Sequence record: PZ495249.1
DNA: 64,000 nucleotides
From: a phage
Direction: 5' to 3' (one strand)
In this document: piece by piece, positions 4,486 to 55,760 of the stretch
How the letters are laid out: the number at the start of each line of letters is the position of its first letter
Position numbering within the stretch: the first letter of the stretch is position 1
Made by a program: the position numbers and the translations under genes
The notes under the pieces: model-generated
What the model was told of the DNA's origin: nothing
The model's database searches: none
Seen by the model: the letters and a program-made list of their open reading frames with translations, nothing else

Positions 4486-4511
4486 GAGAGGGGCGAAAGC
4501 CCCTTTCTCTT
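4486..4511 (+). terminator. intrinsic terminator
   Basis: AGGGGC-GAAA-GCCCCT followed by TTCTCTT. Confidence 0.55.
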
Positions 4512-10409: not shown

Positions 10410-10413
10410 TAAA

Positions 10414-10429
10414 AGGGGCGCAAGCCCCT
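10414..10429 (+). terminator. GNRA-tetraloop hairpin after primase-helicase
   Basis: AGGGGC-GCAA-GCCCCT; same family as 4486 and 13370. Confidence 0.35.
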
Positions 10430-10448
10430 TGACTTAGAGGAGAGAATT

Positions 10449-13364: not shown

Positions 13365-13369
13365 TAAAC

Positions 13370-13386
13370 AGGGGCGAAAGCCCCTT
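13370..13386 (+). terminator. GNRA-tetraloop hairpin after DNA polymerase
   Basis: AGGGGC-GAAA-GCCCCTT. Confidence 0.35.
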
Positions 13387-13633: not shown

Positions 13634-13872
13634 AACTTGTAGAAACAGTAATCACTACCGTAGAATTTGAAGTAGGGGATGTAGTTATGTTCCTGGATGA
13701 AGTTGGCTTTTATAAATTGGGAGATGTAATTGTTCTCCGTAAAGATTCCGAGCCAGAGAGATTCAAAGCTGAGGGTGCAGGGTTTATTGCTGGAGAAGCT
13801 AATGTAACACAGAAATGGCTGCATGATCTTCTGAAAGAAGGTCGAGTGAAACTGTTAGGGGAGTTAAAATAA
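13631..13872 (+). CDS. hypothetical small protein
   Basis: Start chosen at ATG 13631 after RBS ggggagaaaaa; shares MKLV start and LLGELK-like end with the previous gene. Confidence 0.4.
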
Positions 13873-14510
13873 TGGCATTATTCATGACCGTAGATAATCA
13901 AAAGCAAGCAGCATCAGAACTTCTTTCTAAATTGAAGATGGTAGATCCGTTTGCTATGATCGCAGGTGGTGCTCCTCGTGACTGGTACTTTAACACCGTT
14001 GCCAAGGACTTGGACGTATATCTCCGTCTTCCTAACCACAATACCATTGGATTGGTAACTTCCTTGGCTGCAATGGTGGGGATTAAAGATTTCTACCCTA
14101 TCGACAAGATTAAGGAATCAACCTACGCAGAATTACCTAACCTGAAATGGGTGTTTGAAGGTCGTTACAACGGTGTTCAAGTTAATCTGATGGTTATGGA
14201 GAAGGGTGTACGCGAAGAAATTATCAAAGATTTCGACGTGGCTATCTGTCGGGCATGGTTTGATGGGATCGAGTGTCATTACAATGAAGAATTTCAATTC
14301 TGTGTGAAGACTCGTGTTTGCCTGGTTCATGAGAACTACACTGGTAAAGAAGCCCACCTGCGTAAGATGGCTAAACGTTTCCCACAATTCATGTTCTATA
14401 AGAAAGTGGAGATCCCAGAAGAACCGGACGTGAGCTTTGACGCACCTCCAAGCCACGCTAAGGCTGCACCGCTTCCTCGTAAGCTGCCTGATTTCTGTGA
14501 TGAAATTTAA
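13872..14510 (+). CDS. pol-beta-superfamily nucleotidyltransferase (CCA-adding / poly(A) polymerase head-domain-like)
   Basis: IAGGAPRDW...KDLDVYL fits the GGxxRD...DxD head motif of class II tRNA nucleotidyltransferases; 212 aa. Confidence 0.5.
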   Translation: MALFMTVDNQKQAASELLSKLKMVDPFAMIAGGAPRDWYFNTVAKDLDVYLRLPNHNTIGLVTSLAAMVGIKDFYPIDKIKESTYAELPNLKWVFEGRYNGVQVNLMVMEKGVREEIIKDFDVAICRAWFDGIECHYNEEFQFCVKTRVCLVHENYTGKEAHLRKMAKRFPQFMFYKKVEIPEEPDVSFDAPPSHAKAAPLPRKLPDFCDEI

Positions 14511-15886: not shown

Positions 15887-15899
15887 GGATAAAAATAAA

Positions 15900-15930
15900 G
15901 GGAGCCTCTTTCGAGGTTCCCTTTTTTATT
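15900..15930. terminator. bidirectional intrinsic terminator between the convergent plus and minus modules
   Basis: GGGAGCCTC-TTTC-GAGGTTCCC flanked by an A run upstream and TTTTTTATT downstream; SSB ends at 15886 and the minus-strand gene ends at 15929. Confidence 0.7.
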
Positions 15931-17080
15931 ACACAGCATTTACGGATAAGTAGGAGCTATCAGAAGCAACCACCGTACCTTGATATGTGGCAGTACATCC
16001 TATCCTGCACCCGCCATCGCCTACTCCAGTAATAAGACCATTACTATCAACCGTAGCCACTGTAGGATCTGTTGTGGTATAAGTGATAACCATATCTGAT
16101 AACGACGCTGCACCATCTGGTGTTATCGTTGCCACAAGTTGTTGTGTAGTCCCTACACTCATTGCACTCAAGCTTTCAGTGTACACGCTTAATGTAGATG
16201 CATAGCCTCCAGAACTATCAGAGAGCGTTGTTCCAACATTGTTTTTAGCTGTTAAACTTGCATCGAAACCACCTTCACTAACAAACGACATTAGCCCATT
16301 AGTATCAATGGTCATAATAGAAGTATTACTTGAAGCATAAACTTTATCTGTTATTGGTGCTCCGGTTGGAGTAACAGAGTATGTTAATTGTTTCGTGCCT
16401 CCCACTATTGCAATACCGATGGAATCTGTGGTAATGCTTGTGGCTGTCGGTACTATACTGGTCATGATAGTTAGATCGTCTATTTTACCACGCAGCATTA
16501 GCGCGTTATCTGTAGTCCCAGCAATACAGAAGGGATTAGCAGTATTTCCCCCGAAACCCTTAGAAATAGTTAAAACAGATCCGAGAAAGACATTATCTTT
16601 CTTCACATACAAGCTACTCCCTGACTTCGTTATTGTCAGTCGAAACCAAGTATTAACTGGTAGTGCAGCAGTCCCAAAACGAAATCTTTGGACTTCCCCT
16701 GTCGTGCTGTAGCCATCTATACTAACGGATGCGAATACTTGATACGTATTGTTTAAGGTTATCCACCAACTACCAGAACCAGCATTGTTATTCAAGTTAC
16801 CGCATAGAATAGCTTGAGAGGTGTTATCTAAATATAACCATGTGTCTATAAGTAGGTCGGTAGTAGTCCCAACCACAAGACCAGTAGGTAGGCCACCAGA
16901 CGGGTTTGTAACGGTTATTTTACTATTAGATGTTCCACTAAATATGAGCGAACCTTTCCCTGATGCCGAATCTGTAGACTCGGCAACACCTGCACCCAAG
17001 GTAACTACACCGAATTCTTGCAAGCGTTTAACGATGTAGTTTACGTAAGGCTTTCCTCCGGCGAGTAACACTTCAAGCAT
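15929..17080 (-). CDS. LamG/concanavalin-like domain protein with Ig-like repeats (virion-associated)
   Basis: 383 aa; N-terminal MLEVLLAGGKP motif shared with 55897..56553; Thr/Ser-rich beta-rich sequence. Confidence 0.5.
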   Translation of the reverse strand: MLEVLLAGGKPYVNYIVKRLQEFGVVTLGAGVAESTDSASGKGSLIFSGTSNSKITVTNPSGGLPTGLVVGTTTDLLIDTWLYLDNTSQAILCGNLNNNAGSGSWWITLNNTYQVFASVSIDGYSTTGEVQRFRFGTAALPVNTWFRLTITKSGSSLYVKKDNVFLGSVLTISKGFGGNTANPFCIAGTTDNALMLRGKIDDLTIMTSIVPTATSITTDSIGIAIVGGTKQLTYSVTPTGAPITDKVYASSNTSIMTIDTNGLMSFVSEGGFDASLTAKNNVGTTLSDSSGGYASTLSVYTESLSAMSVGTTQQLVATITPDGAASLSDMVITYTTTDPTVATVDSNGLITGVGDGGCRIGCTATYQGTVVASDSSYLSVNAV

Positions 17081-17089
17081 AAGTTCACC

Positions 17090-17758
17090 TTAACTAATAA
17101 ATGTATTAGGTACAGCAGGTAGATTCTGCTTACTTGTCGCCTCGTATGTTGCTTTCAAGACAGTCAGATAATTTTGTACCACAACACCCCATTGCTTCAT
17201 AGCTTCATCAATTAGGCCAAGGGTATCTGTTTTATTTAGTGGATTTGACACACCTTCTTTCAGATTGATCAGATAAGTATCGGTGGCAGTTCCGCTGGTA
17301 GCAGACGTTTTGATAATATTTAATAGTGCCATACCATCTGCTGTCATTTGCAGGGTGTAATTTTGACCTGCGTATGTAACAGTGATACCTGTGAAACCAT
17401 CTTGAATAAAGATGTTATACAAGTTAGCTGCTTGACCTTGTTTTCTTTGTGCAAGATCTGCTGCGGCTTCTTGTTCATCAAAATCACGTACAACATAAGT
17501 ACGGTAGAATTTACCATCTGCCCCTTGCACTGGAGTGACTTCTGTAATAACATCACCATCAGGAATAGGTGAATCGAAAATCACAGCATAACCAAACTCT
17601 TCAAGAATGTAATCTCGGCAAGGGTATGGATAACTGATGTTAGTGTTAGAAGCACGAATAGCAGGGAAATAAATAGGCCAAGAAAGATCAGCCATATTAA
17701 TTAACGGGGTGTAATCATAAACCAAAGTAAAATCTTCGATTGAAGTAGTTTCTTCCAT
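17090..17758 (-). CDS. hypothetical tail-fibre-associated protein
   Basis: 222 aa; RBS ggaggaata; immediately downstream of the collagen-like fibre gene. Confidence 0.4.
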   Translation of the reverse strand: MEETTSIEDFTLVYDYTPLINMADLSWPIYFPAIRASNTNISYPYPCRDYILEEFGYAVIFDSPIPDGDVITEVTPVQGADGKFYRTYVVRDFDEQEAAADLAQRKQGQAANLYNIFIQDGFTGITVTYAGQNYTLQMTADGMALLNIIKTSATSGTATDTYLINLKEGVSNPLNKTDTLGLIDEAMKQWGVVVQNYLTVLKATYEATSKQNLPAVPNTFIS

Positions 17759-17779
17759 CGTATTCCTCCGAATAAAAGA

Positions 17780-17799
17780 AGAGGGGATTTCTCCCCTCT
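17780..17799 (-). terminator. intrinsic terminator, copy 1 of an identical 20-nt hairpin
   Basis: AGAGGGGA-GAAA-TCCCCTCT (minus sense) followed by TCTTTTATT; identical to 20341..20360. Confidence 0.55.
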
Positions 17800-17803
17800 G
17801 TTA

Positions 17804-20296
17804 TTAAGCGTAACCACCTGGTTTGAAACCAAGTAGGCTCGTTCCGTCCCATAACAGACTAACTGTGCAACGTCCAGTGGTGTAGGTTGGAGCCGTTCCA
17901 TCTGTCCAGTTGATTGTGTTAGTCCATGACACTGAACCTGTATTACCAGTGAAGATAACAACAATGGTCATCGCTCTACCCGCTGGTAGGTTAGTAATCG
18001 TTAGGGTTTTGCTTGATGCCAGAGAGACAGTAAACACTTGTCCCTGACTTGCGTCAAGTGTAGCAGTTGCAGTAGATACAGCCAAATCGTAACGATTTAG
18101 ACGAGTCCACACACCACCGCTTTGCATGTAATATCCATCTGTGGTAGGGGCTTTCGCCAGTGTTTCTACCCAAGCTGTATCTTTACGTGCATAAACTTTC
18201 CCATCAGCAGGAGCATCTGAGATTCCTGGAGAAGGAATCGTAAACGCTGTCCAACCACCGTCTTTACGAGCGTACATAGAGCCATCGCTTGGTGCGTCAT
18301 AGACGTTACCACCACCCATGTAACCCATAGAAGCCCAGTTAAGGCTGCTGGTTTTCTGGAAGAACTGTAGTGTTAAGGAGTTTAGGAAGTAGTCGCCTAC
18401 ACGTCCGTCAGCAGGTCCAGGGTTACGCTGCAATACGATCCACAGTGTACCTTGATCACCCTTATCACCTTTCACACCCTGCGCACCTTGCGGTCCCGCT
18501 GGTCCCTGGATATTACCTGCGTTCTGGTATGATCCATTTCCTGAGCTATCTACGTTCCAAACCCAGAAGTTGCCATCAATCAGATAACCTTCACCGATGG
18601 TTCCAGTTGCAGGAAGATCTGCGGTTGAATCAAGTTCACCAAGGATCTTAACCCCTGGTCCCATAGGACCTGGAATACCCTGAATACCTTGTTCCCCTTG
18701 AATACCCTGCTCACCCTGGATACCTTGTGGACCGCTGTTCACGCCCATATCGATCCAAGCTGTACCGCTCCAGATGTATGAACGCTGGTGAATGTAGTAC
18801 ATGTCACCTTGAATGTTACCAGTGGTAGGTAGGTCTGAGGTGTTACTTAGTTCACCCTTCGCATGAATAGAATTACCAGTGGCTCCTGTTGCACCTTGTT
18901 CCCCTTGGATGCCACGAAGAACACCCATATCCACCCAACCTTCACTCTTGTCAAAGTTTAGCGTATAGATGTAAAGATTGCCAGTGTCTTCTAAGCTATA
19001 TGCGCTACCGTATGGAGGCTTAACTGGAAGATCGCTTGCAGATGGTACTTGACCTTTAGCGGTGATTGAGATACCTTGTAGAACACCAGCGTTGAGCCAT
19101 TCACCAGTTCCTGCAACAGGATCTATTGCTACCCAAATATAGATGTATTTATCAGGACCGACTAAGTAAGCTGTACCATAATTAACATCTTCCGGCGGAG
19201 GTAATTGACTTTCGTTATCTACTTCACCTACGATGTTAAGACCTGTACCAGGAACACCTTGGATACCAGGTACACCTTGCTCGCCTTGGATACCTTGTTC
19301 ACCTCTATCTCCTTTATCTCCCTTCAGAGATGCAAGGAAATCGGCTTCGGAACCAAAGTTACCAGCATTAATCCAGATTTGGTAAGCGGAGTCCCCGTCT
19401 TTACCATCTGCACCGTTTGTACCAGCATTACCTTTGTCTCCCTTATCCCCTTTGTCGCCTTTCGGACCGACAATAGCTCCCATGTCCACCCACGCAGTAC
19501 CGTTAGATACGTAGAGGTAGGTTCCATAGCTCCATGCCTGAGATACGTTAGCTGGAGATGGTAGTGGCAGTAGTCCAGGATCAGAGATAGCACCCTGATA
19601 ATCAAATCCGTTAGCGTTTACACCAGGATCACCTTTCTGTCCTTGTGGACTTGGATCACCTTTATCGCCCTTGATGGATTGAACGAAGTCAAGCTCTGTA
19701 CCTGTGTTACCAACGTCTAACCAACTTTGATACGCAGATTTACCTTCCGGTCCCACTTGACCAACAGGCGACCATTGGATACTATCCCATACCCACATTT
19801 GCTCTTGAACAATATATGCATCACCAGGAGAGTTTCCTGTCATAGGTAGGTCGGATACAGAATCAAAGCTTCCTTTGATTACAAGACCACTACCTGTATC
19901 TCCTTTCAGAGAATCAAGCCATTCTTGTTCAGTACCGACGAAGCCATTATCTACCGCAATATCATATGCAGATTTACCAGCTTCTGGAATTTGTGTAGCG
20001 AGGTCGTCGATCTCTTGTTGAATAGTTGTGAACTTGGCATTGATAATAGCAATATCGTCAGCTTTACCAACGTTAACCCAAGTGTTAACACCGATGCCAC
20101 CTGTAGAACCAGGGGTAGAGTTTGCTGGAACGACTTTCGGTAAAGCGCCCTTCCATTGATAGTAGTTACCGTCTGTATCGTACAGTAATACTTCTCTTGC
20201 ATTTGTTAATGTAAAGCCAGCTACAAAGCTTCTACGCTTTCTGTAGGTAGCTTCGACCATATCAGCAATAGCGCTATTAGGTCTTGTTAGAATCAT
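17804..20296 (-). CDS. tail fibre protein with collagen-like Gly-X-Y repeats
   Basis: 830 aa; GXY tracts such as GPQGIQGEQGIQGEQGIQGIPGPMGPG and GPKGDKGDKGDKGNAGTNGADGKDG. Confidence 0.7.
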   Translation of the reverse strand: MILTRPNSAIADMVEATYRKRRSFVAGFTLTNAREVLLYDTDGNYYQWKGALPKVVPANSTPGSTGGIGVNTWVNVGKADDIAIINAKFTTIQQEIDDLATQIPEAGKSAYDIAVDNGFVGTEQEWLDSLKGDTGSGLVIKGSFDSVSDLPMTGNSPGDAYIVQEQMWVWDSIQWSPVGQVGPEGKSAYQSWLDVGNTGTELDFVQSIKGDKGDPSPQGQKGDPGVNANGFDYQGAISDPGLLPLPSPANVSQAWSYGTYLYVSNGTAWVDMGAIVGPKGDKGDKGDKGNAGTNGADGKDGDSAYQIWINAGNFGSEADFLASLKGDKGDRGEQGIQGEQGVPGIQGVPGTGLNIVGEVDNESQLPPPEDVNYGTAYLVGPDKYIYIWVAIDPVAGTGEWLNAGVLQGISITAKGQVPSASDLPVKPPYGSAYSLEDTGNLYIYTLNFDKSEGWVDMGVLRGIQGEQGATGATGNSIHAKGELSNTSDLPTTGNIQGDMYYIHQRSYIWSGTAWIDMGVNSGPQGIQGEQGIQGEQGIQGIPGPMGPGVKILGELDSTADLPATGTIGEGYLIDGNFWVWNVDSSGNGSYQNAGNIQGPAGPQGAQGVKGDKGDQGTLWIVLQRNPGPADGRVGDYFLNSLTLQFFQKTSSLNWASMGYMGGGNVYDAPSDGSMYARKDGGWTAFTIPSPGISDAPADGKVYARKDTAWVETLAKAPTTDGYYMQSGGVWTRLNRYDLAVSTATATLDASQGQVFTVSLASSKTLTITNLPAGRAMTIVVIFTGNTGSVSWTNTINWTDGTAPTYTTGRCTVSLLWDGTSLLGFKPGGYA
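18460..19435 (-). repeat. coding collagen-like GXY repeat region inside the tail fibre gene
   Basis: Five or more interrupted Gly-X-Y tracts; approximate boundaries. Confidence 0.6.
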
Positions 20297-20340
20297 TTAT
20301 TACTCCTCGTTCGATTATTAAACGGTAGCATAGAAATTAA

Positions 20341-20360
20341 AGAGGGGATTTCTCCCCTCT
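20341..20360 (-). terminator. intrinsic terminator, copy 2 of the identical hairpin
   Basis: Same 20 nt as 17780..17799, placed right after the tailspike stop codon. Confidence 0.55.
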
Positions 20361-20362
20361 AT

Positions 20363-23300
20363 TTACGTCGTTGGTACATCGTTTGGAGTTGGACGAATTA
20401 CCGCAGTGTTACCCACTGAAACATTACTTGCGTCGTTAGGAACAGTTTTAATTCTAATTCCAGCCGCAGTAGCTGTTTGAATAGGATCGGCAATATCAAT
20501 CTTGACAGGGTTTGTCCACAGGTCATTATCTTGATATGGTGCGCGGGTAATTACAGTATCGAGATCTGCACCACCTGCACCTGCCCCAGGAATACGGATA
20601 CGTGTTCCGGCTGATAATGGGTAATGGTATAACCAAGAAGCGTTTGTCGCCGTTCCATTTGGTACTAAGTTCTGAGCCAGTGATTTATCGCCAACAGTTG
20701 TTGCACGAATTCCGAATGCTGCAATATCTGGGATATATGCACCACTTGTCGTAACAAGGAAGAACGTGTTATCTGCTTTAACGATCATGTCACCTTTATC
20801 AAACTCTTTCCCAGTTGGGAAGTGCAGACCATCAATGTTTCTGCTTGGGTTAGCTTCCAGGTAATAAACCTTTCCGGTAGAACCAAGAAGAGCACCAATT
20901 CCGCCAGCGATGTTGGTATACATGTTGGCTTCAACGTTACAGTTGACACGGTGAATGTCAGAGTAACGGCAACGGCTCCATGCTGGACGACCACTAACCA
21001 TTGTGTTACCATTTGGGTAGCAGTTTACGTTAACCATTTCAAGAACAGATTTCTCGCGACGGAAGAATCCATCGTAGAATGTACCTGGTCCTGACTCTGG
21101 TTGACCAACACACTCGAAGCTGTTACAAGTGATGTTTGACATTGACAGCCAAGAAGCAATACCGAATAGCTGTAGTGCAGCACAACGGATGTTCTCGAAG
21201 CTCACACGGTTTTCAAATCCTGGTCCTGCTGAAACACCTGCGAACACACGCCCTGTGCGGGTATGAACGTTCTTAACAGAGTAGTTGAAGCAAGGGTTTG
21301 AAGGTCTACCTTGTGGTGGCTGAACTGGTTGTCCATCCGGTCCCAATACTGGGTTAGTACCCCACTCCAAGTAAATCAGACGGATATTACTTGCTGGAGT
21401 GTTAGCATCAGTTTTAGGTTCACCGTAAACACCGTCAATCGTGAAGTCTTTGCTTCCGTACATTACCACTGCACCTGTTGCTAAACCAGTACCTGTCGAA
21501 ACAGTCTGATCAGGATCACCGTGGATGTTCTCAATAGTAATGTTACGTCCAACTTCTACGTGAACAATTTGACGACAACGTTTTGCAAACACGTTGCGGA
21601 TTGTGATATTCTTACAGTATTGACTGTCTGGGATATCGTAACCATATGGTCCCTGTCCTGCCACACCGATACCGATACCCCAGTTGGAGTTAGCGATAGG
21701 AGCGTTTGTACCGTCAATGTTAGACAGATAGATGTTCTCGATCACACAACCATCATCATAGTGTTTACTGATAACGTTAAGTTCGATAGCATCACCTTGC
21801 ATATCCATGAAGGTAAGGTTGCGGAATACACCACGAGTTACAGGCTCACCAGTACCTTGTTGAAGAATACCGTATAAACCGTTTTTGAAGGTACAGTTGT
21901 CAATCTCGAATGTACCCGTGATTGGGTTGCCCTGGAATACCAGGCTACCAACTTGTCCTGCGCGTGGCGCACCGTCCCACAGGCAGTCGTAGATACGAAC
22001 TGCACCACCCCAATACATAACGCGAGCGTTACGGAAGGTTACACCTTCTAAGGTAGCATTTTGTAAACGATAGTCACGTTGACCACGGAATACACCACCT
22101 TTCAGCGTGATACCAGTGATATCAAAGCTGCTTGTAGTGAAAGTCATGTCACACCCGTAGGCGTTCAACACTTTCCCTTTGCTGTTAGCAGTTGCTGTCA
22201 GAGCCGCCTGGAAAGCTGCTTCTGGTGTGGTGTATTTTGAATTGTTCGCAAACTCAGACAAGTAAACAACGTCGAACAGATCGTTGAATACACCACCGTG
22301 TGGTGTTAGAAGCGCTTCTGTGTTCGTCAGAACCCAAGTGGTAGGGCTAACCCCTCCGCTGCTTTCTAAAGTGTCTGTAGCTGAAATTGTCTTAGGTAGA
22401 GTACCAGCCCAACGATAACGACCTGAACCCATACCGATAGTTTGGTTCTTGATAGTTAAAGTAGCTGCGTTACCGAAGCTCGTTGGCAGGTGAACAAATT
22501 GTCCACGTTCAACAGCCAGTGCAGCAAGGTCAACTGTACCACCTGAGTAAGTTAACACACCTGTTGCAGAAAGGCTACCGAAGTTACCGCTAATACCTAC
22601 TGGTAGAGTGTACGCTGCTTGGGTTGTAGGATCGTAAAGAGCCTTAATCCCTGTTAGAGACTGCCCTGTTTGTGCTAAACCAACTTCTGCATCTTTCAGA
22701 CCGAACTTACGTGCCACAATCTGTGTTGGAACTTTACTCATCTGAGTCGTCAGATCAGAAGTAGTAGTTTCCAGTGCAGTAACACGGTTTGCCAGGTTAG
22801 GATCGTTATCTGCGGCAGCTACAATTTTACCAATGTACGCAAACAGTTTGTTAGGTAGTCCAGTAGCAGGATCTAAACCAAGAGGTTCAGAAAGAATGAT
22901 CTTGCTGTCCTGAATAGTATACGCATCACCAACAATCTGCACAACCCCGTTGATAGTTACGATAGCACTATCAAACACGTATGGAGGGCTGATAACTTTC
23001 TCATAACCTGTTGCGCCAGTGTACAACCAAGGGTATACTTCGTTAGCAAGCTGTTCAGTTTTCATAGCCCAGAGAACCCAGTTATTATCTCCTACTGGAG
23101 TCCCTTGCATAGGGATTGGGTTAGCGGTTGTCGCTGTTGGAGCGTAGTAATACCCACTCAGAATCCCATTCTGGAAGAAACGGAGTTGGTTAAATACTGT
23201 TTCATTAGTACCTGCCGCCCAAGCGACAGGGCTTTTGAAATAGAAGTTATCAAGCAACGCTTTACGCAGCGTAGGAATTAAACCTGTTTCAGTTTCAACC

Positions 23301-23407
23301 GTAGCTGTCGCAGCACCGTTAATAACATCGTGCAACTGGTTAGAAGAGAAAATAACCAGGTCAACACCCTGATCGAGTGTTGTAGCAGGATATGTTGGAA
23401 ATGCCAT
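20363..23407 (-). CDS. tailspike protein with right-handed beta-helix (pectate-lyase-like, candidate depolymerase)
   Basis: 1014 aa; long run of N/G/T/V-rich beta-helix-type repeats (NITIRN, NITIEN). Confidence 0.6.
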   Translation of the reverse strand: MAFPTYPATTLDQGVDLVIFSSNQLHDVINGAATATVETETGLIPTLRKALLDNFYFKSPVAWAAGTNETVFNQLRFFQNGILSGYYYAPTATTANPIPMQGTPVGDNNWVLWAMKTEQLANEVYPWLYTGATGYEKVISPPYVFDSAIVTINGVVQIVGDAYTIQDSKIILSEPLGLDPATGLPNKLFAYIGKIVAAADNDPNLANRVTALETTTSDLTTQMSKVPTQIVARKFGLKDAEVGLAQTGQSLTGIKALYDPTTQAAYTLPVGISGNFGSLSATGVLTYSGGTVDLAALAVERGQFVHLPTSFGNAATLTIKNQTIGMGSGRYRWAGTLPKTISATDTLESSGGVSPTTWVLTNTEALLTPHGGVFNDLFDVVYLSEFANNSKYTTPEAAFQAALTATANSKGKVLNAYGCDMTFTTSSFDITGITLKGGVFRGQRDYRLQNATLEGVTFRNARVMYWGGAVRIYDCLWDGAPRAGQVGSLVFQGNPITGTFEIDNCTFKNGLYGILQQGTGEPVTRGVFRNLTFMDMQGDAIELNVISKHYDDGCVIENIYLSNIDGTNAPIANSNWGIGIGVAGQGPYGYDIPDSQYCKNITIRNVFAKRCRQIVHVEVGRNITIENIHGDPDQTVSTGTGLATGAVVMYGSKDFTIDGVYGEPKTDANTPASNIRLIYLEWGTNPVLGPDGQPVQPPQGRPSNPCFNYSVKNVHTRTGRVFAGVSAGPGFENRVSFENIRCAALQLFGIASWLSMSNITCNSFECVGQPESGPGTFYDGFFRREKSVLEMVNVNCYPNGNTMVSGRPAWSRCRYSDIHRVNCNVEANMYTNIAGGIGALLGSTGKVYYLEANPSRNIDGLHFPTGKEFDKGDMIVKADNTFFLVTTSGAYIPDIAAFGIRATTVGDKSLAQNLVPNGTATNASWLYHYPLSAGTRIRIPGAGAGGADLDTVITRAPYQDNDLWTNPVKIDIADPIQTATAAGIRIKTVPNDASNVSVGNTAVIRPTPNDVPTT

Positions 23408-50449: not shown

Positions 50450-50524
50450 TGGTTGTAGCAGATGGAATCGAACCATCATCAATCGGTTATCAGCCGAACG
50501 TATTAGCCGTTATACTATGCCACA
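50450..50524 (-). tRNA. tRNA-Ile (anticodon GAT)
   Basis: 7 bp acceptor with encoded CCA, loop CTGATAA, T arm GATGG-TTCGATT-CCATC; hand-folded. Confidence 0.55.
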
Positions 50525-50530
50525 ATTGTT

Positions 50531-50613
50531 TGGCATCCAGGTGAGGAATCTAACCCCTTGAAACTGGTTTTGGAGGCCAGCAACGGGAACACCCATTTTT
50601 AATCTACCCAGAT
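50531..50613 (-). tRNA. tRNA-like element, possibly Trp (CCA) with aberrant D region
   Basis: Acceptor pairs with two G/U wobbles; loop CTCCAAA; T loop TTAGATT lacks C56; D region about 7 nt too long. Confidence 0.25.
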
Positions 50614-50619
50614 ATTGTT

Positions 50620-50695
50620 TGGAGGCGGGAGCCGGAATCGAACCGACCTGCGACAAGCATATGAAACTTGTGAGTTCCCAGAACTCTATCCCGCA
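50620..50695 (-). tRNA. tRNA-Met (anticodon CAT) with U1/C72 mismatch
   Basis: Loop TTCATAT, T arm GTCGG-TTCGATT-CCGGC, CCA encoded. Confidence 0.5.
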
Positions 50696-50776
50696 CTTTT
50701 GGTTGATAGTAAGAGAATCAAACTCTTCTCACAACGCCGTATGAAAGCGTCCGAAACATCAGCTTCACACTATCAA

Positions 50777-51040
50777 TTAAACACGATGGATTATTTTAAC
50801 TGTCTCACCCTTATCATTCATAAGGTAGGCACTTTCATTCCTATGAATAAAGTCCGTAGAGTTGCCACTAATGACACTTGCAATAACACCATCCAGCTTA
50901 TCATAACCTTCAAAATGATATTGGATGTGTATATTTCCATCAAGTTCTATATAATGTTCTTCTTCATCTACCTCGTAAGGTACTGAGTCATAAATTTTTG
51001 TCCCTTTGGGGAACTTGCGAACTATTTTCAATGTATACAT
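50777..51040 (-). CDS. hypothetical protein inside the tRNA array
   Basis: 87 aa; RBS gaaggaaa. Confidence 0.4.
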   Translation of the reverse strand: MYTLKIVRKFPKGTKIYDSVPYEVDEEEHYIELDGNIHIQYHFEGYDKLDGVIASVISGNSTDFIHRNESAYLMNDKGETVKIIHRV

Positions 51041-51124
51041 AGTATTTCCTTCGTAGTGTTTATATTAGTAATATGCCGTCCCAAGCCGAACGGCGATTAG
51101 TGTTTTAGCTTGGCATTGATAATA

Positions 51125-51199
51125 TGGTACTTCCTGGAGGAATCGAACCACCGACGCTCACCTTGTAAGGATGACGTTCTACCATTGAACTAAGGAAGT
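51125..51199 (-). tRNA. tRNA-Val (anticodon TAC)
   Basis: D arm GTTC-AATGGTA-GAAC, loop CTTACAA, T loop TTCGATT. Confidence 0.6.
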
Positions 51200-51272
51200 A
51201 TGGCGGGGATTTTCCGCACTGTCTATCGCGATATGGACTCGGACAGTGTTCTCGGCTAAATACCCCATTGTT

Positions 51273-51359
51273 TGGTACATCAGGTCAGACTCGAACTGAC
51301 ACGCCCTCACGAGCACTGGAACCTAAATCCAGGGCGTCTACCAATTTCGCCACTGATGC
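51273..51359 (-). tRNA. tRNA-Leu (anticodon TAG), long variable arm
   Basis: Loop TTTAGGT, 15 nt variable arm, T loop TTCGAGT. Confidence 0.6.
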
Positions 51360-51367
51360 ATTTAATT

Positions 51368-51444
51368 TGGTGGAGAAGTGGAGAATCGAACTCCATACTC
51401 GAAGGTGCAAACCTCGTGTTTTAACCGAATATTACTACATCCCC
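51368..51444 (-). tRNA. tRNA-Ala (anticodon TGC)
   Basis: Loop TTTGCAC; G3/U70 wobble in the acceptor stem (Ala identity element); T arm TGGAG-TTCGATT-CTCCA. Confidence 0.6.
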
Positions 51445-51506
51445 AATTTGTATACACTACACAGAAGATAGGTCTGATTGCCTCGGCAGTTGCCGTAGTG
51501 TTTATC

Positions 51507-51582
51507 TGGTACGGATGGAAGGAGTCGAACCTCCGACGCAGGGCTTCGTAGACCCTCGTTCTATCCACTGAACTACACCCGT
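51507..51582 (-). tRNA. tRNA-Arg (anticodon ACG)
   Basis: D arm GTTC-AGTGGATA-GAAC, loop CTACGAA, T arm GGAGG-TTCGACT-CCTTC. Confidence 0.7.
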
Positions 51583-51588
51583 ATTGTT

Positions 51589-51663
51589 TGGTGCAGAGTG
51601 TTGGTAACGATCCAACCTGTGTGGCTTTTCAGACCACCACTAATCCATCTCAGTTAACTCTGC
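51589..51663 (-). tRNA. tRNA-Phe (anticodon GAA)
   Basis: Loop CTGAAAA; T loop ATCGTTA (A54/U58 covariation). Confidence 0.6.
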
Positions 51664-51669
51664 ATAATC

Positions 51670-51745
51670 TGGTCAGTGAGAGAGGACTCGAACCTCCAAC
51701 AGCTACGCCCCAAACGTAACACTCTACCACTTGAGCTACTCACTG
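51670..51745 (-). tRNA. tRNA-Pro (anticodon TGG)
   Basis: C1-G72 first pair typical of bacterial tRNA-Pro; loop TTTGGGG. Confidence 0.6.
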
Positions 51746-51752
51746 ATAAATC

Positions 51753-51827
51753 TGGCTACAGGTCTTGGGATCGAACCAAGTCATACGGTGGTCAAAGCAC
51801 CGTGCCTTCCCATTTGGCTACCCTGTA
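51753..51827 (-). tRNA. tRNA-Gln (anticodon TTG)
   Basis: U1-A72 and 3 bp D stem GCC/GGC as in E. coli tRNA-Gln; loop CTTTGAC. Confidence 0.6.
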
Positions 51828-51834
51828 ATTAAAT

Positions 51835-51922
51835 TGGTATCGTGGACGAGATTCGAACTCGCAAGGGATTACTCCCGCCAGATTGAAAGTCTGGTTACTT
51901 AGGCCGTTTTGTATACCACGAT
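51835..51922 (-). tRNA. long-variable-arm (type II) tRNA with anticodon loop CTTTCAA (anticodon TTC); isotype ambiguous
   Basis: Perfect acceptor ATCGTGG/CCACGAT, anticodon stem CCAGA/TCTGG, 15 nt variable arm with GGGA-GTAA-TCCC stem, T arm GCGAG-TTCGAAT-CTCGT. Confidence 0.45.
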
Positions 51923-52025
51923 ATAAAATTTCTTAAAGAGAACTGCTGAAAGTTGAAGGAGAAAACCATGAGCGAAAAGAGAAAAGGTTTCCAGCAGTTC
52001 CATTTAAAAAATCTCGTAGGGTTGT

Positions 52026-52104
52026 TGGCGCGGGTGACAGGATTCGAACCTGCGACGAACTGGGTGGAAGCCAGACACTCTACCAAACTGAGTTACACAC
52101 GCGC
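52026..52104 (-). tRNA. tRNA-Gly (anticodon TCC)
   Basis: Loop CTTCCAC, T arm GCAGG-TTCGAAT-CCTGT; D region slightly long. Confidence 0.5.
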
Positions 52105-52170
52105 TGATTAACAACTCTATAATACTACTCTACTACATTTTAGCCCTCGTTGTCAAGGGCTTTTGACAAA

Positions 52171-52497
52171 TTATTTCAGAAGTTTTTCCAAACCTTGCTT
52201 CATCGCATACTCTATGAAGAAGTTTAGTTCACCGATTAACTCTGGTTCCCACTGGTCTTCCAAGCCATAACATGAACAATGTCCACCATGAACTTCATAA
52301 AACTTATTGTCACGCTTATCGTAGAAGTAAACATCGGATGATCCAGTGTAGCACTCATACGTATAATCTGCGTACAGGATGATAATATCATCTTCTGTTA
52401 GATCAACATGATAATCACTCATCACTTGATCGAAGTCTGAAAAGTCGTTATCATACACGTCAACATGCAGATACTTTTCTAATTCTTGTTTATCCAT
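52171..52497 (-). CDS. hypothetical acidic protein inside the tRNA array
   Basis: 108 aa; strong RBS aagaggaggaaac; HGGHCSCYG motif. Confidence 0.5.
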   Translation of the reverse strand: MDKQELEKYLHVDVYDNDFSDFDQVMSDYHVDLTEDDIIILYADYTYECYTGSSDVYFYDKRDNKFYEVHGGHCSCYGLEDQWEPELIGELNFFIEYAMKQGLEKLLK

Positions 52498-52737
52498 GTT
52501 TCCTCCTCTTTAGAATATGTGGGGCAGTGACGGATACCCCTTTGGGTGACAAACCCTACGTTCGGAAGCTCGGTCAGACTGACACAAAACACGAAGTCAA
52601 ATGTCCTTCCTCCCTGCTGTCGATTGGAGAGAGCCGATCCCCTCTGAACTTCATTTAAGCGCGATACCACTTAGGGCTGTCTAACACTTTCCTGAACTTA
52701 CCAATCCACCTAATCCCAGTCACGGTTTCGGATTTTC

Positions 52738-52813
52738 TGGTGCTCCCACACTGAATCGAACAGTGATTTGCGGGTTACAAAGCCGCAGTAATAGGCCATT
52801 ATACGATAGGAGC
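52738..52813 (-). tRNA. tRNA-Thr (anticodon TGT)
   Basis: T arm CACTG-TTCGATT-CAGTG, loop TTTGTAA closed by a C/C mismatch. Confidence 0.55.
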
Positions 52814-52819
52814 AAATTT

Positions 52820-52895
52820 TGGCGGGCAATATTGGATTCGAACCAATTACCATTCGGTTAACAGCCGACCGCACATCCGTATGTGCTTATCACCC
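52820..52895 (-). tRNA. tRNA-Asn (anticodon GTT)
   Basis: Loop CTGTTAA, T arm ATTGG-TTCGAAT-CCAAT, acceptor with two G/U pairs. Confidence 0.55.
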
Positions 52896-52973
52896 ATGTT
52901 CTTCGTTAAGAGTAGGCGCGTTTCATCAGTCGCCTCGTGTTATTTTCTCCTGTTTCCAGGCTCCCTTTAGTGC

Positions 52974-53096
52974 TCGCGAGGGAGGGATTCGAACCACTCA
53001 CCTCTGCCAGAGCCAACCAGATCTTTCGGGTAATTACTCCGTCCAACCATTTGATTAACCTGCTGGCAGCGTCCATCGCCCTTAGACTGCCTCGCG
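52974..53096 (-). ncRNA. tRNA-like element, 123 nt, perfect 7 bp acceptor but weak T stem (pseudo-tRNA or tRNA with insertion)
   Basis: Acceptor CGCGAGG/CCTCGCG, T loop TTCGAAT present, about 35 nt more than a type II tRNA. Confidence 0.2.
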
Positions 53097-53136
53097 TCTG
53101 TCAATTCAGATGCCACTAAAGCTCTCTCAACTAATT

Positions 53137-53220
53137 TGGTGTGGGTAGATGGATTCGAACCACCGCGCCTTTCGGATCAGATTTACAGTCTGGTGCATTC
53201 AGCCACTCTGCCATACCCAC
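53137..53220 (-). tRNA. tRNA-Tyr (anticodon GTA), long variable arm
   Basis: Loop CTGTAAA, T arm GGTGG-TTCGAAT-CCATC, CCA encoded. Confidence 0.7.
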
Positions 53221-53226
53221 ATTGTT

Positions 53227-53303
53227 TGGTGCGCCGGAAAGGATTCGAACCTTTAGTCCTCTCATTAAAAGTGAGATGCCTTATCCAGTTTAGCTACCGA
53301 CGC
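53227..53303 (-). tRNA. tRNA-Lys (anticodon TTT)
   Basis: D arm GCTA-AACTGGATAA, loop CTTTTAA, T arm AAAGG-TTCGAAT-CCTTT. Confidence 0.7.
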
Positions 53304-53443
53304 ATAAATTTTCTTTAGGATAGGAAGTGTGGGGCACTTCACTATTTATATCGGTGATGGTTGCCGCCATCTGCCGAAAGTTTACTCTATCTAAGTAAGA
53401 GTCGAAACGCTACACGAATAGTATTTCTATCATAAAGAAAACT

Positions 53444-53529
53444 TGGCGGAAGAGGGGAGGGTTGAACTCCCACGCCCTTTCGGACGGCAGTTTAGCAAAC
53501 TGCTATGGCTACCATTTCATCACTCTTCC
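53444..53529 (-). tRNA. tRNA-Ser (anticodon GCT), long variable arm
   Basis: Loop TTGCTAA, 14 nt variable arm, T arm GGGAG-TTCAACC-CTCCC. Confidence 0.65.
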
Positions 53530-53537
53530 ATTTTGTT

Positions 53538-53614
53538 TGGCAGTCGCGACGGGTTACGATCCCGCATTCTCTCCCGTGACAGGGGAGTACCATTACCAAG
53601 CCAGCCCCGCGACT
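53538..53614 (-). tRNA. tRNA-Asp (anticodon GTC)
   Basis: Anticodon arm CTCCC-CTGTCAC-GGGAG; T loop ATCGTAA. Confidence 0.65.
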
Positions 53615-53621
53615 ATTAATT

Positions 53622-53711
53622 TGGAGGAAGATAATGGAGTCGAACCATCACCGTATCACTACAATGGGCCAGGGTTCAAATCTGGTTGCGTACCACTACG
53701 CCCTATCTTCC
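53622..53711 (-). tRNA. tRNA-Ser (anticodon TGA), long variable arm
   Basis: Acceptor GGAAGAT/ATCTTCC, loop TTTGAAC, long variable arm. Confidence 0.55.
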
Positions 53712-53775
53712 AATCTATACTTCTTAGTCTATCATACTTTTCAATCGGTTGTCAATAGCTTTTTGAAAATTATTT

Positions 53776-53853
53776 TGGTCGGGGAGATAGGACTCGAACC
53801 TACATTTCCTCCATTACGCTATACGGCTTAGAAGACCGCCACGGTACACCCCG
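53776..53853 (-). tRNA. tRNA-like element, possibly Arg (TCT), with aberrant D region
   Basis: T arm GTAGG-TTCGAGT-CCTAT and arm GCGGT-CTTCTAA-GCCGT present, but no canonical D arm and 19 nt between anticodon and T arms. Confidence 0.3.
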
Positions 53854-53881
53854 ATCTCTTAGTGCTGACTATAACATAACT

Positions 53882-54052
53882 TATTCGTTACTGTCAAGCT
53901 CTTTTTTAATTTCTTTTCTTGCTTTCTGACGTTCAGTGGCTTTACACACTTCCTGCCAAGATTCGTACTCGTCACCTTTACGGTAGCCACGGCTACGACA
54001 AAGGGAGCAGAGACAACCTTCTTGACGATATTTCAAACCATGAGGTTTCATA
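53882..54052 (-). CDS. hypothetical small Cys-rich protein (not in ORF track, 56 aa)
   Basis: ATG after strong RBS aaggaggatatATG; MKPHGLKYRQEGCLCSLCRSRGYRKGDEYESWQEVCK. Confidence 0.4.
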
Positions 54053-54064
54053 TATCCTCCTTAA

Positions 54065-54139
54065 TTGGTGAGCATTACCAGATTCGAACTGGTGTCTTTC
54101 GGGTTTAGAATCCTACGCTTTACCGCTAAGCTAAATGCC
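54065..54139 (-). tRNA. tRNA with anticodon CTA (candidate amber suppressor); low-confidence fold
   Basis: Acceptor GGGCATT/AATGCTC, D arm GCTT-AGCGGTA-AAGC, T arm ACCAG-TTCGAAT-CTGGT, loop TTCTAAA; anticodon stem has two mismatches. Confidence 0.35.
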
Positions 54140-54371
54140 CTTCGTAAATGTCACGACTATCAGGATCGTGATACAATTCTGCAATTTCTTTACTTAAAGT
54201 AGCTCTCAGTATAATCCCTTTGTGCGAAACAATCAAGTAGATTTTCGTTTCACTTACATCTCCAGGGGCTAAGAGTTTACCTCTTACAATCCGCAAACGT
54301 TCTGCTGAATACCCTTCTTCGAGATCAGCCAACATATCTGCCAACGATTTAGAGAAAGTTAACCGATGCAA
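54126..54371 (-). CDS. hypothetical protein (TTG start, weak)
   Basis: 81 aa ORF with weak RBS; 3' end overlaps the CTA tRNA. Confidence 0.25.
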   Translation of the reverse strand: MHRLTFSKSLADMLADLEEGYSAERLRIVRGKLLAPGDVSETKIYLIVSHKGIILRATLSKEIAELYHDPDSRDIYEGHLA

Positions 54372-55459
54372 GGTATTACTTTCACGGTTTACAATTCCCC
54401 AGATACGATCATCCAGTTTGCAACTTCCTGACTCACAATTAGTCTATGACATTTTCGTTCTCCTGTTTGTTAATAAAACATATAAAGAAGGACAATGATC
54501 AGGTGACGTTTGCCAACGCCCTGCCGAAGTTCCGAAGATTGCAAGTCTTCGCTTGAACCGCATTTCATCAGGAGTAACGTATGATCAGTACGTTTTTCCG
54601 AAATGCTCACACCCCACGGTGCTGACAGTTTTAACACCAATCAATGCCTTTCTTTATATGTTCTGTCGATGGTGGAGGACGGTACGGGATTTTAACCCGT
54701 CTAAACTGGTTTGCAATCAGCCACATAGACACTCTGACAACCGTCCCATCGAAAAGCCAGTCTGTTCCTGGCTGTCACCACAGTTTTAACATTCTGTGGC
54801 TTGAACGTAGGAGCTATTCGATGCTGGCATTCTCCCGTAGCTCTGCCTTTATAGGGGTATGAACCCGTAGGGCGCACCTTATTGTTCCGTTCAAGGGATC
54901 ATGTTGAATGTTAACCTCTGCTTTTCCTTTAGGTTATTCGGAGAGGTACAACGATTGGGTTAGCGAAGCCCAAACACCTCCAGAGCAAACAACAATCTCC
55001 AAAACTGGTGTGACTGGTGGGGCATGATCCCACATCATCTCCTTCACAGGGAGGAACGTTAACCAGCTTACGCTCACAGTCACCATTGTTTGTAGTGTCT
55101 CCAAGGCTTCCTATTCCATCCTAAGATGATCCACCCCTTCAACTAACGCGCTACATCCCTACGAAGAATGAACGTCATTCTCATCGTCTGAAATCTTGTT
55201 CAGAGCATACCACTGCGGAGATTAACCCGCTTCTCATCCTACGTGGTCGGTAGTAGTTGTCAATCAAACAACTCGTAAAATATATTCTCGTAAGAACACA
55301 TATTGCGAGAGTTTGGCACCAGGAGGAGGAGTCGAACACTCCTAATCAGGTCATGACTCCTGACTATCTCAAACCAAACACTGTTGTGTCGGCTATTGCA
55401 TAACAGCGAGCGCTCACTCCTATGCAGACCTTCACCAGTGTCGAGATCCTGGTATTGTT

Positions 55460-55550
55460 TGGTACGGGTGACGAGATTCGAACTCGTAAGATCATCAAAG
55501 ACCTGGGGGATTTTAAGTCCCATGTGTACTGCCAATACCACCACACCCGC
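55460..55550 (-). tRNA. tRNA-Leu (anticodon TAA), long variable arm
   Basis: Anticodon arm GGGA-CTTAAAA-TCCC as in E. coli Leu-UAA; T arm ACGAG-TTCGAAT-CTCGT; 91 nt. Confidence 0.7.
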
Positions 55551-55558
55551 TTTATTTA

Positions 55559-55741: not shown

Positions 55742-55760
55742 AATATTCTCCTCTTTAAGT

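What the first reader, a model, noticed from the sequence alone, without database searches (positions are those of the whole stretch)
17780..20360. Identical 20-nt terminator hairpins bracketing the collagen-like tail fibre gene
The sequence AGAGGGGATTTCTCCCCTCT occurs twice (17780..17799 and 20341..20360), just after the tailspike stop and just after the collagen-like fibre stop. Beyond terminating transcription, identical flanking repeats around a receptor-binding gene could act as recombination anchors for exchanging the fibre cassette.
Basis: seen in the sequence. Interest (0 to 1): 0.45.

Follow-up and report, generated by a model that had tools for sequence, protein, structure and literature searches.

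The report
Twin terminator hairpins flanking fibre gene
Two identical 20-base stem-loops sit just after the tailspike and tail-fibre genes of a new phi92/phAPEC8-like phage; they look like ordinary, probably leaky, transcription terminators, each tied to the gene before it, and relatives give no sign that they act as swap points for the fibre gene.

Summary
AGAGGGGATTTCTCCCCTCT occurs exactly twice (17780-17799, 20341-20360), and identity extends to 21 nt. The genes lie on the minus strand, where the RNA reads AGAGGGGA-GAAA-UCCCCUCU plus a U-rich tail. One copy starts 2 nt after the tailspike stop, the other 4 nt after the collagen-like fibre stop.

The terminator reading is supported by comparison only. 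Every relative examined has a stem-loop plus U-tract at both positions: Phapecoctavirus, phiWec phages, phi92, one IMG/VR contig and six metagenome lineages. The sequences often differ. Hairpin B shows compensatory base-pair changes, and its loop variants stay GNRA (GAAA, GUAA, GAGA). It is 19-20/20 conserved inside flanks only about 73% identical.

The recombination-anchor idea is not supported.
- Where the tailspike body is swapped (L138, L141), hairpin A is swapped with it, and homology resumes about 12 nt downstream.
- A divergent block in L136 (fibre tip, p222, p383 N-domain) runs through hairpin B.
- Other junctions lie inside genes or where no hairpin exists.
- The fibre locus is invariant in 70 Phapecoctavirus records.
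- The same 20-mer occurs in more than 120 unrelated viral contigs.
- A second identical hairpin pair exists elsewhere in the window.

This is an ordinary feature of low interest.

The parts
20341..20360 (-). Hairpin A: AGAGGGGA-GAAA-UCCCCUCU on the coding strand, starting 2 nt after the tailspike stop codon
   Evidence: Orthologous to the Phapecoctavirus hairpin AGAGGGGG-AAT-CCCCCTCT, which is annotated as a terminator. 19-20/20 conserved in L130-L137.
20331..20340 (-). U-rich tail of hairpin A (UUAAUUUCUA)
   Evidence: The rough d'Aubenton-Carafa-type score is -1.7, which is borderline.
20297..20327 (-). Conserved fibre leader (TACCGTTTAATAATCGAACGAGGAGTAATAA) carrying the ribosome-binding site. 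Homology with L138 and L141 resumes here after the swapped tailspike body and hairpin.
   Evidence: Alignment; single copy in the window.
17780..17799 (-). Hairpin B: identical stem-loop, starting 4 nt after the fibre stop codon and ending 21 nt before the p222 start codon
   Evidence: Orthologous hairpins occur in six metagenome lineages with compensatory changes. It is an island of 19-20/20 identity inside flanks about 73% identical.
17770..17779 (-). U-rich tail of hairpin B (UCUUUUAUUC), running straight into the GGAGG ribosome-binding site of p222
   Evidence: score +4.0, borderline.
20363..23407 (-). Tailspike gene (1014 aa), colanic-acid-degrading type
   Evidence: phrog_6117, E 1e-266. 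84% amino-acid identity to Phapecoctavirus tailspikes.
17804..20296 (-). Collagen-like tail fibre gene (830 aa) with a Tail_spike_N anchor. It looks chimeric: the N-terminal 475 aa match phrog_15437 and the C-terminal part matches phrog_3904.
17090..17758 (-). p222 (phrog_4998, function unknown). It has no room for a promoter after hairpin B, so it must be expressed by read-through.
15929..17080 (-). p383, with a Laminin_G_3-like N-domain and Big_2 C-terminal domains; last gene of the unit
   Evidence: The N-domain is swapped, or the gene is absent, in relatives.
15897..15924 (.). Long 12-bp hairpin between the converging gene blocks, terminator-like on both strands; it ends the late tail-gene unit
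   Evidence: The equivalent site is annotated as a terminator on both strands in ASO2A.

Best explanation
The two copies are intrinsic (rho-independent) terminator-type RNA hairpins on the minus-strand late transcript. One closes the tailspike gene and one closes the collagen-like fibre gene.

Each is an 8-bp G/C-cored stem capped by a GNRA tetraloop and followed by a moderately U-rich tract. The downstream genes start 44 nt (fibre) and 21 nt (p222) after the hairpins, and no promoter is predicted in between. The hairpins therefore most likely stop only part of the transcription. That would grade expression along tailspike > fibre > p222/p383, and the hairpins would probably also protect the 3' ends of the upstream messages. 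Final termination would occur at the long hairpin at 15897-15924.

Each hairpin belongs to the gene upstream of it. The two are identical because both descend from already similar purine-arm/GGGG-core hairpins under the same RNA-level selection, possibly helped by one short-patch conversion between them. The identity has no demonstrable role in exchanging the fibre gene.

Shown here: sequence, position, fold, conservation, covariation and breakpoint positions. Inferred: termination itself, leakiness, the stabilising role, and how the identity arose.
For: (1) Position and shape fit a terminator. Stem-loop plus T-rich tail on the coding strand, 2-4 nt after the stop codons, dG -14.

(2) Every relative has a hairpin plus U-tract at both sites. 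These are ASO2A, Schickermooser, tuntematon, phiWec188, phiWec181, phi92 and IMG/VR contig L123. In these seven the A and B sequences differ from each other. Other groups predicted the sites as terminators with TransTermHP/WebGeSTer and ARNold.

(3) Six metagenome lineages share the order spike-hpA-fibre-hpB-p222. Hairpin B changes by compensatory pairs: G-C to A-U in L138, and A-U to G-C plus G-C to A-U in L141. Overall 98.2% of cells are paired and 2 of 8 pairs have double changes.

(4) The only changes inside the close clade are loop changes, GAAA to GUAA (L132 B) and GAAA to GAGA (L136 A). Both remain GNRA on the coding strand, which points to selection on the RNA.

(5) Hairpin B is 19-20/20 conserved while the 600 nt around it is 72-74% identical (P 0.002-0.02; L136 B is an exact 20/20 by direct reading).

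(6) No sigma-70-like promoter is predicted between either hairpin and the next start codon. With only 21 nt before p222, read-through is required.

(7) The terminator score is close to zero for both, consistent with leakiness.

(8) Recurrence of this design is common. There is a second identical pair in the window, and the same 20-mer occurs in more than 120 unrelated viral contigs, none with homologous neighbouring genes.
Against: There are no transcript 3'-end data for this phage or any relative, so termination is inferred.

The U-tracts are interrupted (UUAAUUUC, UCUUUUAU), and my rough score is borderline. A pure mRNA-stabiliser or processing role cannot be separated from termination.

The late promoters of this phage group are unknown. 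The absence of sigma-70-like promoters therefore does not prove read-through.

Exact 20/20 identity including the loop is more than the shared design strictly requires, so a copying event is likely but unproven. The covariation sample is small: 7 sequences and 2 covarying pairs.
Confidence: 0.75

Rival explanations
1. Recombination anchors. The two identical direct repeats would serve as homology sites through which the fibre gene is excised, inserted or exchanged between co-infecting phages as a cassette.
For: The two copies are direct repeats that exactly bracket the fibre gene. T4-type phages have a precedent in which repeated promoter/stem-loop cassettes mediate indels and mini-circles, with crossovers sometimes mapped in the stem-loop (PMC2839356; PMC4122927). 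One module boundary does lie right beside hairpin A: the tailspike swap in L138 and L141 ends about 12 nt 3' of the hairpin. The identity of A and B could itself be the trace of a conversion between them.
Against: At the L138/L141 boundary the hairpin is not conserved. It is replaced along with the tailspike body (3-4/20 matches), so the shared homology is the fibre leader and N-terminus, not the hairpin.

Against L136, the divergent block 18100-16200 contains hairpin B in its interior.

The other junctions lie inside genes: tailspike around 22,800-23,000, fibre around 18,100 and p383 around 16,200-16,450. One lies at the p222|p383 junction, which has no hairpin.

Against L130, identity blocks of 98-100% run straight through both hairpins.

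The fibre locus is 93-100% identical in 70 of 71 Phapecoctavirus records. No relative lacks the fibre or carries an unrelated one between the hairpins.

Only 21 nt are shared, and there is no common promoter or flank. From my own recollection, efficient homologous recombination in E. coli needs about 23-27 bp and phage T4 about 50 bp; PeSL conservation spans about 100 bp.
Confidence: 0.05
2. RNA 3'-end stabilisers or processing boundaries without real termination. The hairpins would block 3'-to-5' exonucleases after endonucleolytic cuts of a long polycistronic late transcript, setting different half-lives for the tailspike and fibre messages.
For: The stems are stable with GNRA caps, selection is visible at the RNA level, the U-tracts are weak, and downstream genes need read-through.
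Against: Nothing separates this from leaky termination. The T-rich tail is retained after the hairpin in nearly all relatives, which a pure exonuclease block would not need. The two roles are not exclusive.
Confidence: 0.15
3. Common binding site for a phage regulator, such as a boxB-like antitermination hairpin or a translational operator. The identical sequence would let one protein control both receptor-binding genes together.
For: Identical stem and loop at two receptor-binding-gene boundaries. The GNRA loop and the closing A-U pair are conserved in all p222-bearing lineages at site B.
Against: At site A the hairpin is entirely different in L138, L141, phiWec and phi92, while the gene order is the same. 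Stem sequences covary rather than stay fixed. GNRA loops are generic stabilisers of terminator hairpins. No candidate regulator was identified.
Confidence: 0.03
4. Coincidence with no function: two chance palindromes in AT-rich spacers.
For: Short G4/C4 palindromes are common, and the same 20-mer occurs in many unrelated viruses.
Against: Shuffles expect 0.01 matches. Position, covariation and island-like conservation across lineages argue for function.
Confidence: 0.02

Closest known systems
Rho-independent (intrinsic) terminators predicted after the tailspike and fibre genes of Phapecoctavirus phages (ASO2A MZ726793, Schickermooser MK373788)
   Same: Same two positions in the same gene order: colanidase tailspike, hairpin, fibre, hairpin, next tail gene, then a long terminator-like hairpin. 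Stems of 8 bp with a G/C core, loops of 3-4 nt, and a T-rich tail. Hairpin A shares the outer 7 bp, AGAGGGG/CCCCTCT.
   Different: In Phapecoctavirus the two hairpins differ from each other: A is AGAGGGGG-AAT-CCCCCTCT and B is GAAGCCCC-GAAA-GGGGCTTTC. Here they are identical. The gene after hairpin B is also different (p222 instead of an 891-aa tail protein). All are predictions; none has been tested.
PeSL (promoter-early stem-loop) cassettes of T4-type phages (Arbiol et al. 2010, PMC2839356; Comeau et al. 2014, PMC4122927)
   Same: Repeated intergenic stem-loops, often polyG followed by polyC, that act as terminators or attenuators and flank genes as direct repeats. This is the documented case of regulatory repeats acting as recombination sites.
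   Different: PeSLs are composite motifs of about 100 bp with a strong sigma-70 promoter. They are present in many copies in hyperplastic regions of early ORFans, and indels and mini-circles map to them. Here only 21 nt are shared and there is no promoter. There are two copies, in a late structural operon, and the breakpoints in relatives do not use them.
Modular exchange of receptor-binding proteins in phi92-like phages (conserved N-terminal anchor, variable C-terminal body)
   Same: The tailspike N-terminal ~200 aa is conserved (81% to phi92, 80-90% nt to L138) while the body is replaced. The fibre N-terminus is conserved while its tip varies.
   Different: This is the process that actually accounts for the variation at this locus, and its junctions are intragenic or just 3' of hairpin A. 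The hairpins are passengers, not anchors.

Membership tests
Intrinsic (rho-independent) terminator | G/C-rich stem-loop in the RNA of the transcribed strand | tested here: met
   8-bp stem with 5 G-C pairs and a GAAA loop, dG -14.0 kcal/mol on the minus strand.
Intrinsic (rho-independent) terminator | Run of U directly after the stem | tested here: inconclusive
   The tails are UUAAUUUCUA (A) and UCUUUUAUUC (B). Each has 5-6 U in the first 8 nt but is interrupted. The rough d'Aubenton-Carafa-type score is -1.7 and +4.0, i.e. borderline.
Intrinsic (rho-independent) terminator | Placed at the 3' end of a gene or operon on the coding strand | tested here: met
   The hairpins start 2 nt and 4 nt after the stop codons of the tailspike and the fibre.
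Intrinsic (rho-independent) terminator | Structure conserved in relatives (covariation) | tested here: met
   Hairpins are present at both sites in all 13 lineages or loci examined. Hairpin B has 98.2% of cells paired and 2 of 8 pairs with compensatory changes.
Intrinsic (rho-independent) terminator | Transcripts end there (release of RNA polymerase) | not testable with these tools
   No transcriptome data were found for this phage group. Term-seq or in vitro transcription is needed.
PeSL-type mobile regulatory cassette | Composite motif: sigma-70-like promoter with AT-rich upstream element plus stem-loop, conserved over about 100 bp | tested here: not met
   Identity is limited to 21 nt (23/24). 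No promoter-like site lies on the minus strand next to either hairpin.
PeSL-type mobile regulatory cassette | Many copies clustered in hyperplastic regions flanking non-essential ORFans | tested here: not met
   There are two copies in 64 kb, flanking an essential-type structural gene.
PeSL-type mobile regulatory cassette | Indels or replacements between close relatives map to the repeats | tested here: not met
   Breakpoints against L130-L141 lie inside genes, 12 nt 3' of a non-conserved hairpin A, or at a junction without a hairpin. Hairpin B lies inside a divergent block.
PeSL-type mobile regulatory cassette | Mini-circles formed by recombination between flanking repeats | not testable with these tools
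   Requires inverse PCR on infected cells or virion DNA.

The most novel reading that the evidence does not exclude
The two hairpins were made identical by short-patch gene conversion and occasionally recombine with each other. That would loop out the fibre gene as a mini-circle carrying one hairpin, which can re-insert at the equivalent hairpin of a co-infecting relative. This would be a minimal, promoter-less version of the PeSL mechanism, acting on a receptor-binding gene. The handful of genomes available would not reveal rare events of this kind.
Probability: 0.05. Interest if true: 0.5.

Novelty: new member of a known kind. Interest (0 to 1): 0.15.

Why it matters
It matters little beyond annotation. 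It gives a clean comparative case that each receptor-binding gene in phi92/phAPEC8-like phages carries its own hairpin, with covariation and GNRA loops. It also shows that host-range modules in this group are exchanged at intragenic domain borders, with the terminator travelling along with the upstream gene. That is useful for anyone engineering tailspike or fibre swaps in these phages: cut after the hairpin and before the conserved fibre leader, or at the N-terminal anchor border. It also cautions against reading short identical terminators as recombination sites.

Tried and rejected
- Close relatives in the GenBank phage collection: none. The best matches are about 75-76% identical Phapecoctavirus genomes.
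- IMG/VR search with the fibre protein: only distant loci, L123-L125.
None encodes homologues of the four neighbouring proteins, so they are unrelated occurrences and not relatives.
- Search for a donor of p222 in the phage collection: only about 30% identical proteins of rV5-like phages, which was not informative.
- Rfam: no family at either hairpin.
- A repeated promoter-like motif in the conserved fibre leader: single copy in the window.
- The terminator score uses modern folding energies in a 1990 formula. It also depends on where the stem is taken to end, because several 3' arms are themselves T-rich. I treat it only as 'borderline'.
- In the pairwise global alignment, L136 hairpin B scores 19/20 because of a neighbouring 1-nt indel. 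Direct reading shows 20/20.
- I considered whether hairpin B arrived with an imported 'fibre tip + p222' cassette. The arrangement fibre-hairpin-p222 is old, being shared with L123, L138 and L141, so this cannot explain the identity with A.
- Which hairpin was the template, or whether the identity is convergent, could not be resolved.
Full report
**1. The observation**

The 20-mer AGAGGGGATTTCTCCCCTCT occurs exactly twice in the 64-kb window, at 17780-17799 and 20341-20360. Dinucleotide-preserving shuffles expect 0.01 matches even with three mismatches allowed. Identity extends one base further, so the exact repeat is 21 nt (17779-17799 = 20340-20360), or 23 of 24 nt. No longer repeat brackets the fibre gene.

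In order of transcription they are:
- a lipoprotein-like gene, 23748-23407;
- a 1014-aa colanidase-type tailspike, 23407-20363;
- hairpin A;
- an 830-aa collagen-like fibre, 20296-17804 (Pfam Tail_spike_N, Collagen, Fibritin_C);
- hairpin B;
- a 222-aa protein of unknown function, 17758-17090 (phrog_4998);
- a 383-aa protein with Laminin_G_3-like and Big_2 domains, 17080-15929;
- a 12-bp hairpin at 15897-15924, terminator-like on both strands, which faces the opposing gene block.

On the coding strand each copy reads AGAGGGGA-GAAA-UCCCCUCU: an 8-bp stem, a GNRA loop and dG -14.0 kcal/mol. Copy A starts 2 nt after the tailspike stop codon and copy B 4 nt after the fibre stop codon. They are followed by UUAAUUUCUA (A) and UCUUUUAUUC (B). 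The description 'after the tailspike stop and after the fibre stop' is therefore correct.

**2. What the phage is**

The window is about 75-76% identical in nucleotides to Phapecoctavirus genomes (phAPEC8 group, subfamily Stephanstirmvirinae). It is collinear with them and with phi92. No closer genome exists in the GenBank phage set or in IMG/VR.

**3. Hairpins at the same two places in relatives**

ASO2A, Schickermooser, tuntematon, phiWec188, phiWec181 and phi92 all have a stem-loop plus T-rich tail directly after the tailspike stop and directly after the fibre stop. So does the 153-kb IMG/VR contig L123, which has the same spike-fibre-p222-p388 order.

In ASO2A and Schickermooser these sites were annotated as rho-independent terminators, using TransTermHP/WebGeSTer and ARNold. 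The sequences differ between genera and, in these seven relatives, between the two sites:

| Phage | Hairpin A (after tailspike) | Hairpin B (after fibre) |
|---|---|---|
| Phapecoctavirus | AGAGGGGG-AAT-CCCCCTCT | GAAGCCCC-GAAA-GGGGCTTTC |
| phi92 | AAAGGGGC-GAAA-GCCCCTTT | AAGCCCC-TTCG-GGGGCTT |

What is kept is structure and position, not sequence. That is the signature of an RNA-level function.

**4. Close relatives from metagenomes**

A metagenome scan with p222 found one contig, L130, that is 89% identical over 12.4 kb. A protein search with p222 then gave seven clusters at 95-51% identity, and I fetched contigs for six of them. All have the order spike, hairpin, fibre, hairpin, p222. 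The hairpins on the coding strand are as follows.

| Locus | Hairpin A | Hairpin B |
|---|---|---|
| window, L130, L131, L134 | AGAGGGGAGAAATCCCCTCT | identical to A |
| L132, L133 | as window | loop GUAA |
| L136, L137 | loop GAGA | as window |
| L138-L140 | GGAGCGGGG-TTCA-TCCCTGCTCC (unrelated) | AAAGGGGAGAAATCCCCTTT |
| L141 | AAAGAGCGGGG-TTTA-TCCCTGCTCTTT (unrelated) | AAGGGGGAGAAATCCCCCT |

Three points follow.
- Hairpin B changes by compensatory pairs. On the alignment, 98.2% of cells are paired and 2 of 8 pairs carry double changes; slid-register controls show none. The sample is small.
- The only substitutions within the close clade are in the loop, and all three loops (GAAA, GUAA, GAGA) are GNRA on the coding strand.
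- Hairpin B is 19-20/20 identical to the window in L132, L134 and L136, although the 600 nt around it are only 72-74% identical (P 0.002-0.02, with L136 read directly).

**5. Test of the recombination-anchor idea**

I aligned the locus of each relative to the window and profiled identity.

- L130/L131: blocks of 98-100% identity run straight through both hairpins. Divergence is concentrated in the collagen-repeat part of the fibre (about 19760-19070) and in p222 and p383.
- L138 and L141: the tailspike N-terminal ~200 aa are conserved, but the body is about 55% identical, i.e. replaced. Hairpin A is replaced with it (3-4/20 matches). Homology resumes abruptly about 12 nt downstream of the hairpin, at TACCGT, and the first 100 nt of the fibre gene are 92-93% identical. 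The hairpin travels with the tailspike module, and the shared homology is the fibre leader and N-terminus.
- L136: identity is 92-96% up to about 18100. It drops to 60-80% through the fibre tip, hairpin B and p222, and to none in the N-domain of p383. It returns to 90-100% from about 16200. Hairpin B sits in the interior of this divergent block.
- L132 and L134: both sides of hairpin B are similarly diverged.
- The p383 N-domain is replaced (L132, L136) or the gene is missing (L138, L141). The boundary is at the p222|p383 junction, which has no hairpin.
- In Phapecoctavirus itself the region from the tailspike end to the next gene is 93-100% identical in 70 of 71 records. The fibre is not a variable cassette there.

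No relative lacks the fibre or carries an unrelated fibre between conserved hairpins. The prediction that matters, fibres varying between conserved copies, fails.

**6. Why the two copies are identical**

Hairpin A shares its outer seven base pairs with the orthologous Phapecoctavirus hairpin. Hairpin B shares its core and loop (GGGGA-GAAA-TCCCC) with the orthologous hairpins of L138 and L141. The two ancestors were therefore already alike, and few changes, or one short conversion tract, would make them identical. The single loop changes in L132 and L136 show that they now drift independently.

Recurrent sequences are normal for this design:
- the window holds a second identical pair, AGGGGCGAAAGCCCCTT at 4488-4504 and 13369-13385, next to unrelated + strand genes;
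- ASO2A is reported to have 55 predicted terminators;
- the exact 20-mer occurs in more than 120 unrelated IMG/VR contigs, none with homologous neighbouring genes.

I cannot decide between conversion and convergence.

**7. Mechanism**

The best reading is a pair of intrinsic terminator hairpins that are leaky.
- p222 starts 21 nt after hairpin B, and that spacer holds only the ribosome-binding site.
- The fibre starts 44 nt after hairpin A.
- No sigma-70-like promoter is predicted on the minus strand in either spacer, although the late promoters of this phage group are unknown.
- The U-tracts are interrupted, and a rough terminator score is near zero for both.

Partial termination would grade expression along the operon, and the hairpins would also protect upstream 3' ends. 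The two roles cannot be separated here. Rfam has no family at these sites.

**8. Comparison with known systems**

The hairpins meet the sequence-level criteria of intrinsic terminators, except that the U-tract is only moderate and termination itself is untested. PeSLs are composite motifs of about 100 bp, combining a promoter and a stem-loop, in hyperplastic regions. Indels and mini-circles map to them. The present repeats fail three defining features that I could test: no promoter or long conservation, only two copies in a structural operon, and breakpoints elsewhere. From my own recollection, 21 nt is also below the homology needed for efficient recombination in E. coli (about 23-27 bp) or T4 (about 50 bp).

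**9. Verdict**

The terminator interpretation is supported by comparative evidence. The recombination-anchor interpretation is not supported. This is an ordinary regulatory feature in a previously unsequenced lineage of phi92/phAPEC8-like phages, and its interest is low.

Noticed in passing
window 4488-4504 and 13369-13385 (+ strand): A second pair of identical hairpins, AGGGGC-GAAA-GCCCCTT (17 nt), lies next to unrelated + strand genes. A third similar one (AAGGGGC-GCAA-GCCCCTT) is at 10413-10430. This shows that terminator-type hairpins recur in this genome.
   Followed up: partly
window 22,800-20,330 compared with L138 and L141: The tailspike body after the N-terminal ~200 aa, together with its hairpin, is replaced in two metagenome lineages. 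Homology resumes at TACCGT (about 20327), 12 nt 3' of hairpin A. This is a neat module boundary for tailspike swapping.
   Followed up: yes
window 18,100-16,200 compared with L136: A divergent block covers the last ~100 aa of the fibre, p222 and the N-terminal Laminin_G_3-like domain of p383, inside an otherwise 92-100% identical neighbourhood. These three parts may co-vary as one receptor-recognition unit.
   Followed up: partly
window 15929-17080 (p383) and relatives L132, L136, L138, L141: The gene after p222 is highly variable. It is 383 aa here, 494 aa in L132 and 186 aa in L136, and absent in L138 and L141. Only the Big_2 C-terminal part is shared with phi92 gp152 and with the 891-aa Phapecoctavirus tail protein.
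   Followed up: partly
window 17804-20296 (fibre): The fibre looks chimeric. Residues 1-475 match the Stephanstirmvirinae fibre family (phrog_15437, about 59% identity to Phapecoctavirus). Residues 407-825 match a different fibre family (phrog_3904). A Fibritin_C-like segment lies near residue 700.
   Followed up: no
window 17704-17840 compared with L130: A mismatch-free stretch of 135 nt is centred on hairpin B, in a region otherwise about 10% diverged. It includes synonymous sites of the fibre end and the p222 start. The cause could be selection or a recent conversion tract.
   Followed up: no
window 50,453-55,838 (minus strand): An array of 17 tRNA genes detected by Rfam.
   Followed up: no
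window 13872-14510 (+), by synteny with L131 10244-10867 and equivalents: The syntenic gene in the relatives carries a weak precomputed Pfam hit to PF26128 (Gad2). I did not scan the window ORF itself.
   Followed up: no
IMG/VR loci L003-L122: The exact 20-mer AGAGGGGATTTCTCCCCTCT occurs in more than 120 viral contigs whose neighbouring genes are unrelated to those here. I estimate, without computing it, that this is far above chance for a random 20-mer. It suggests the sequence is a convergently favoured terminator.
   Followed up: partly
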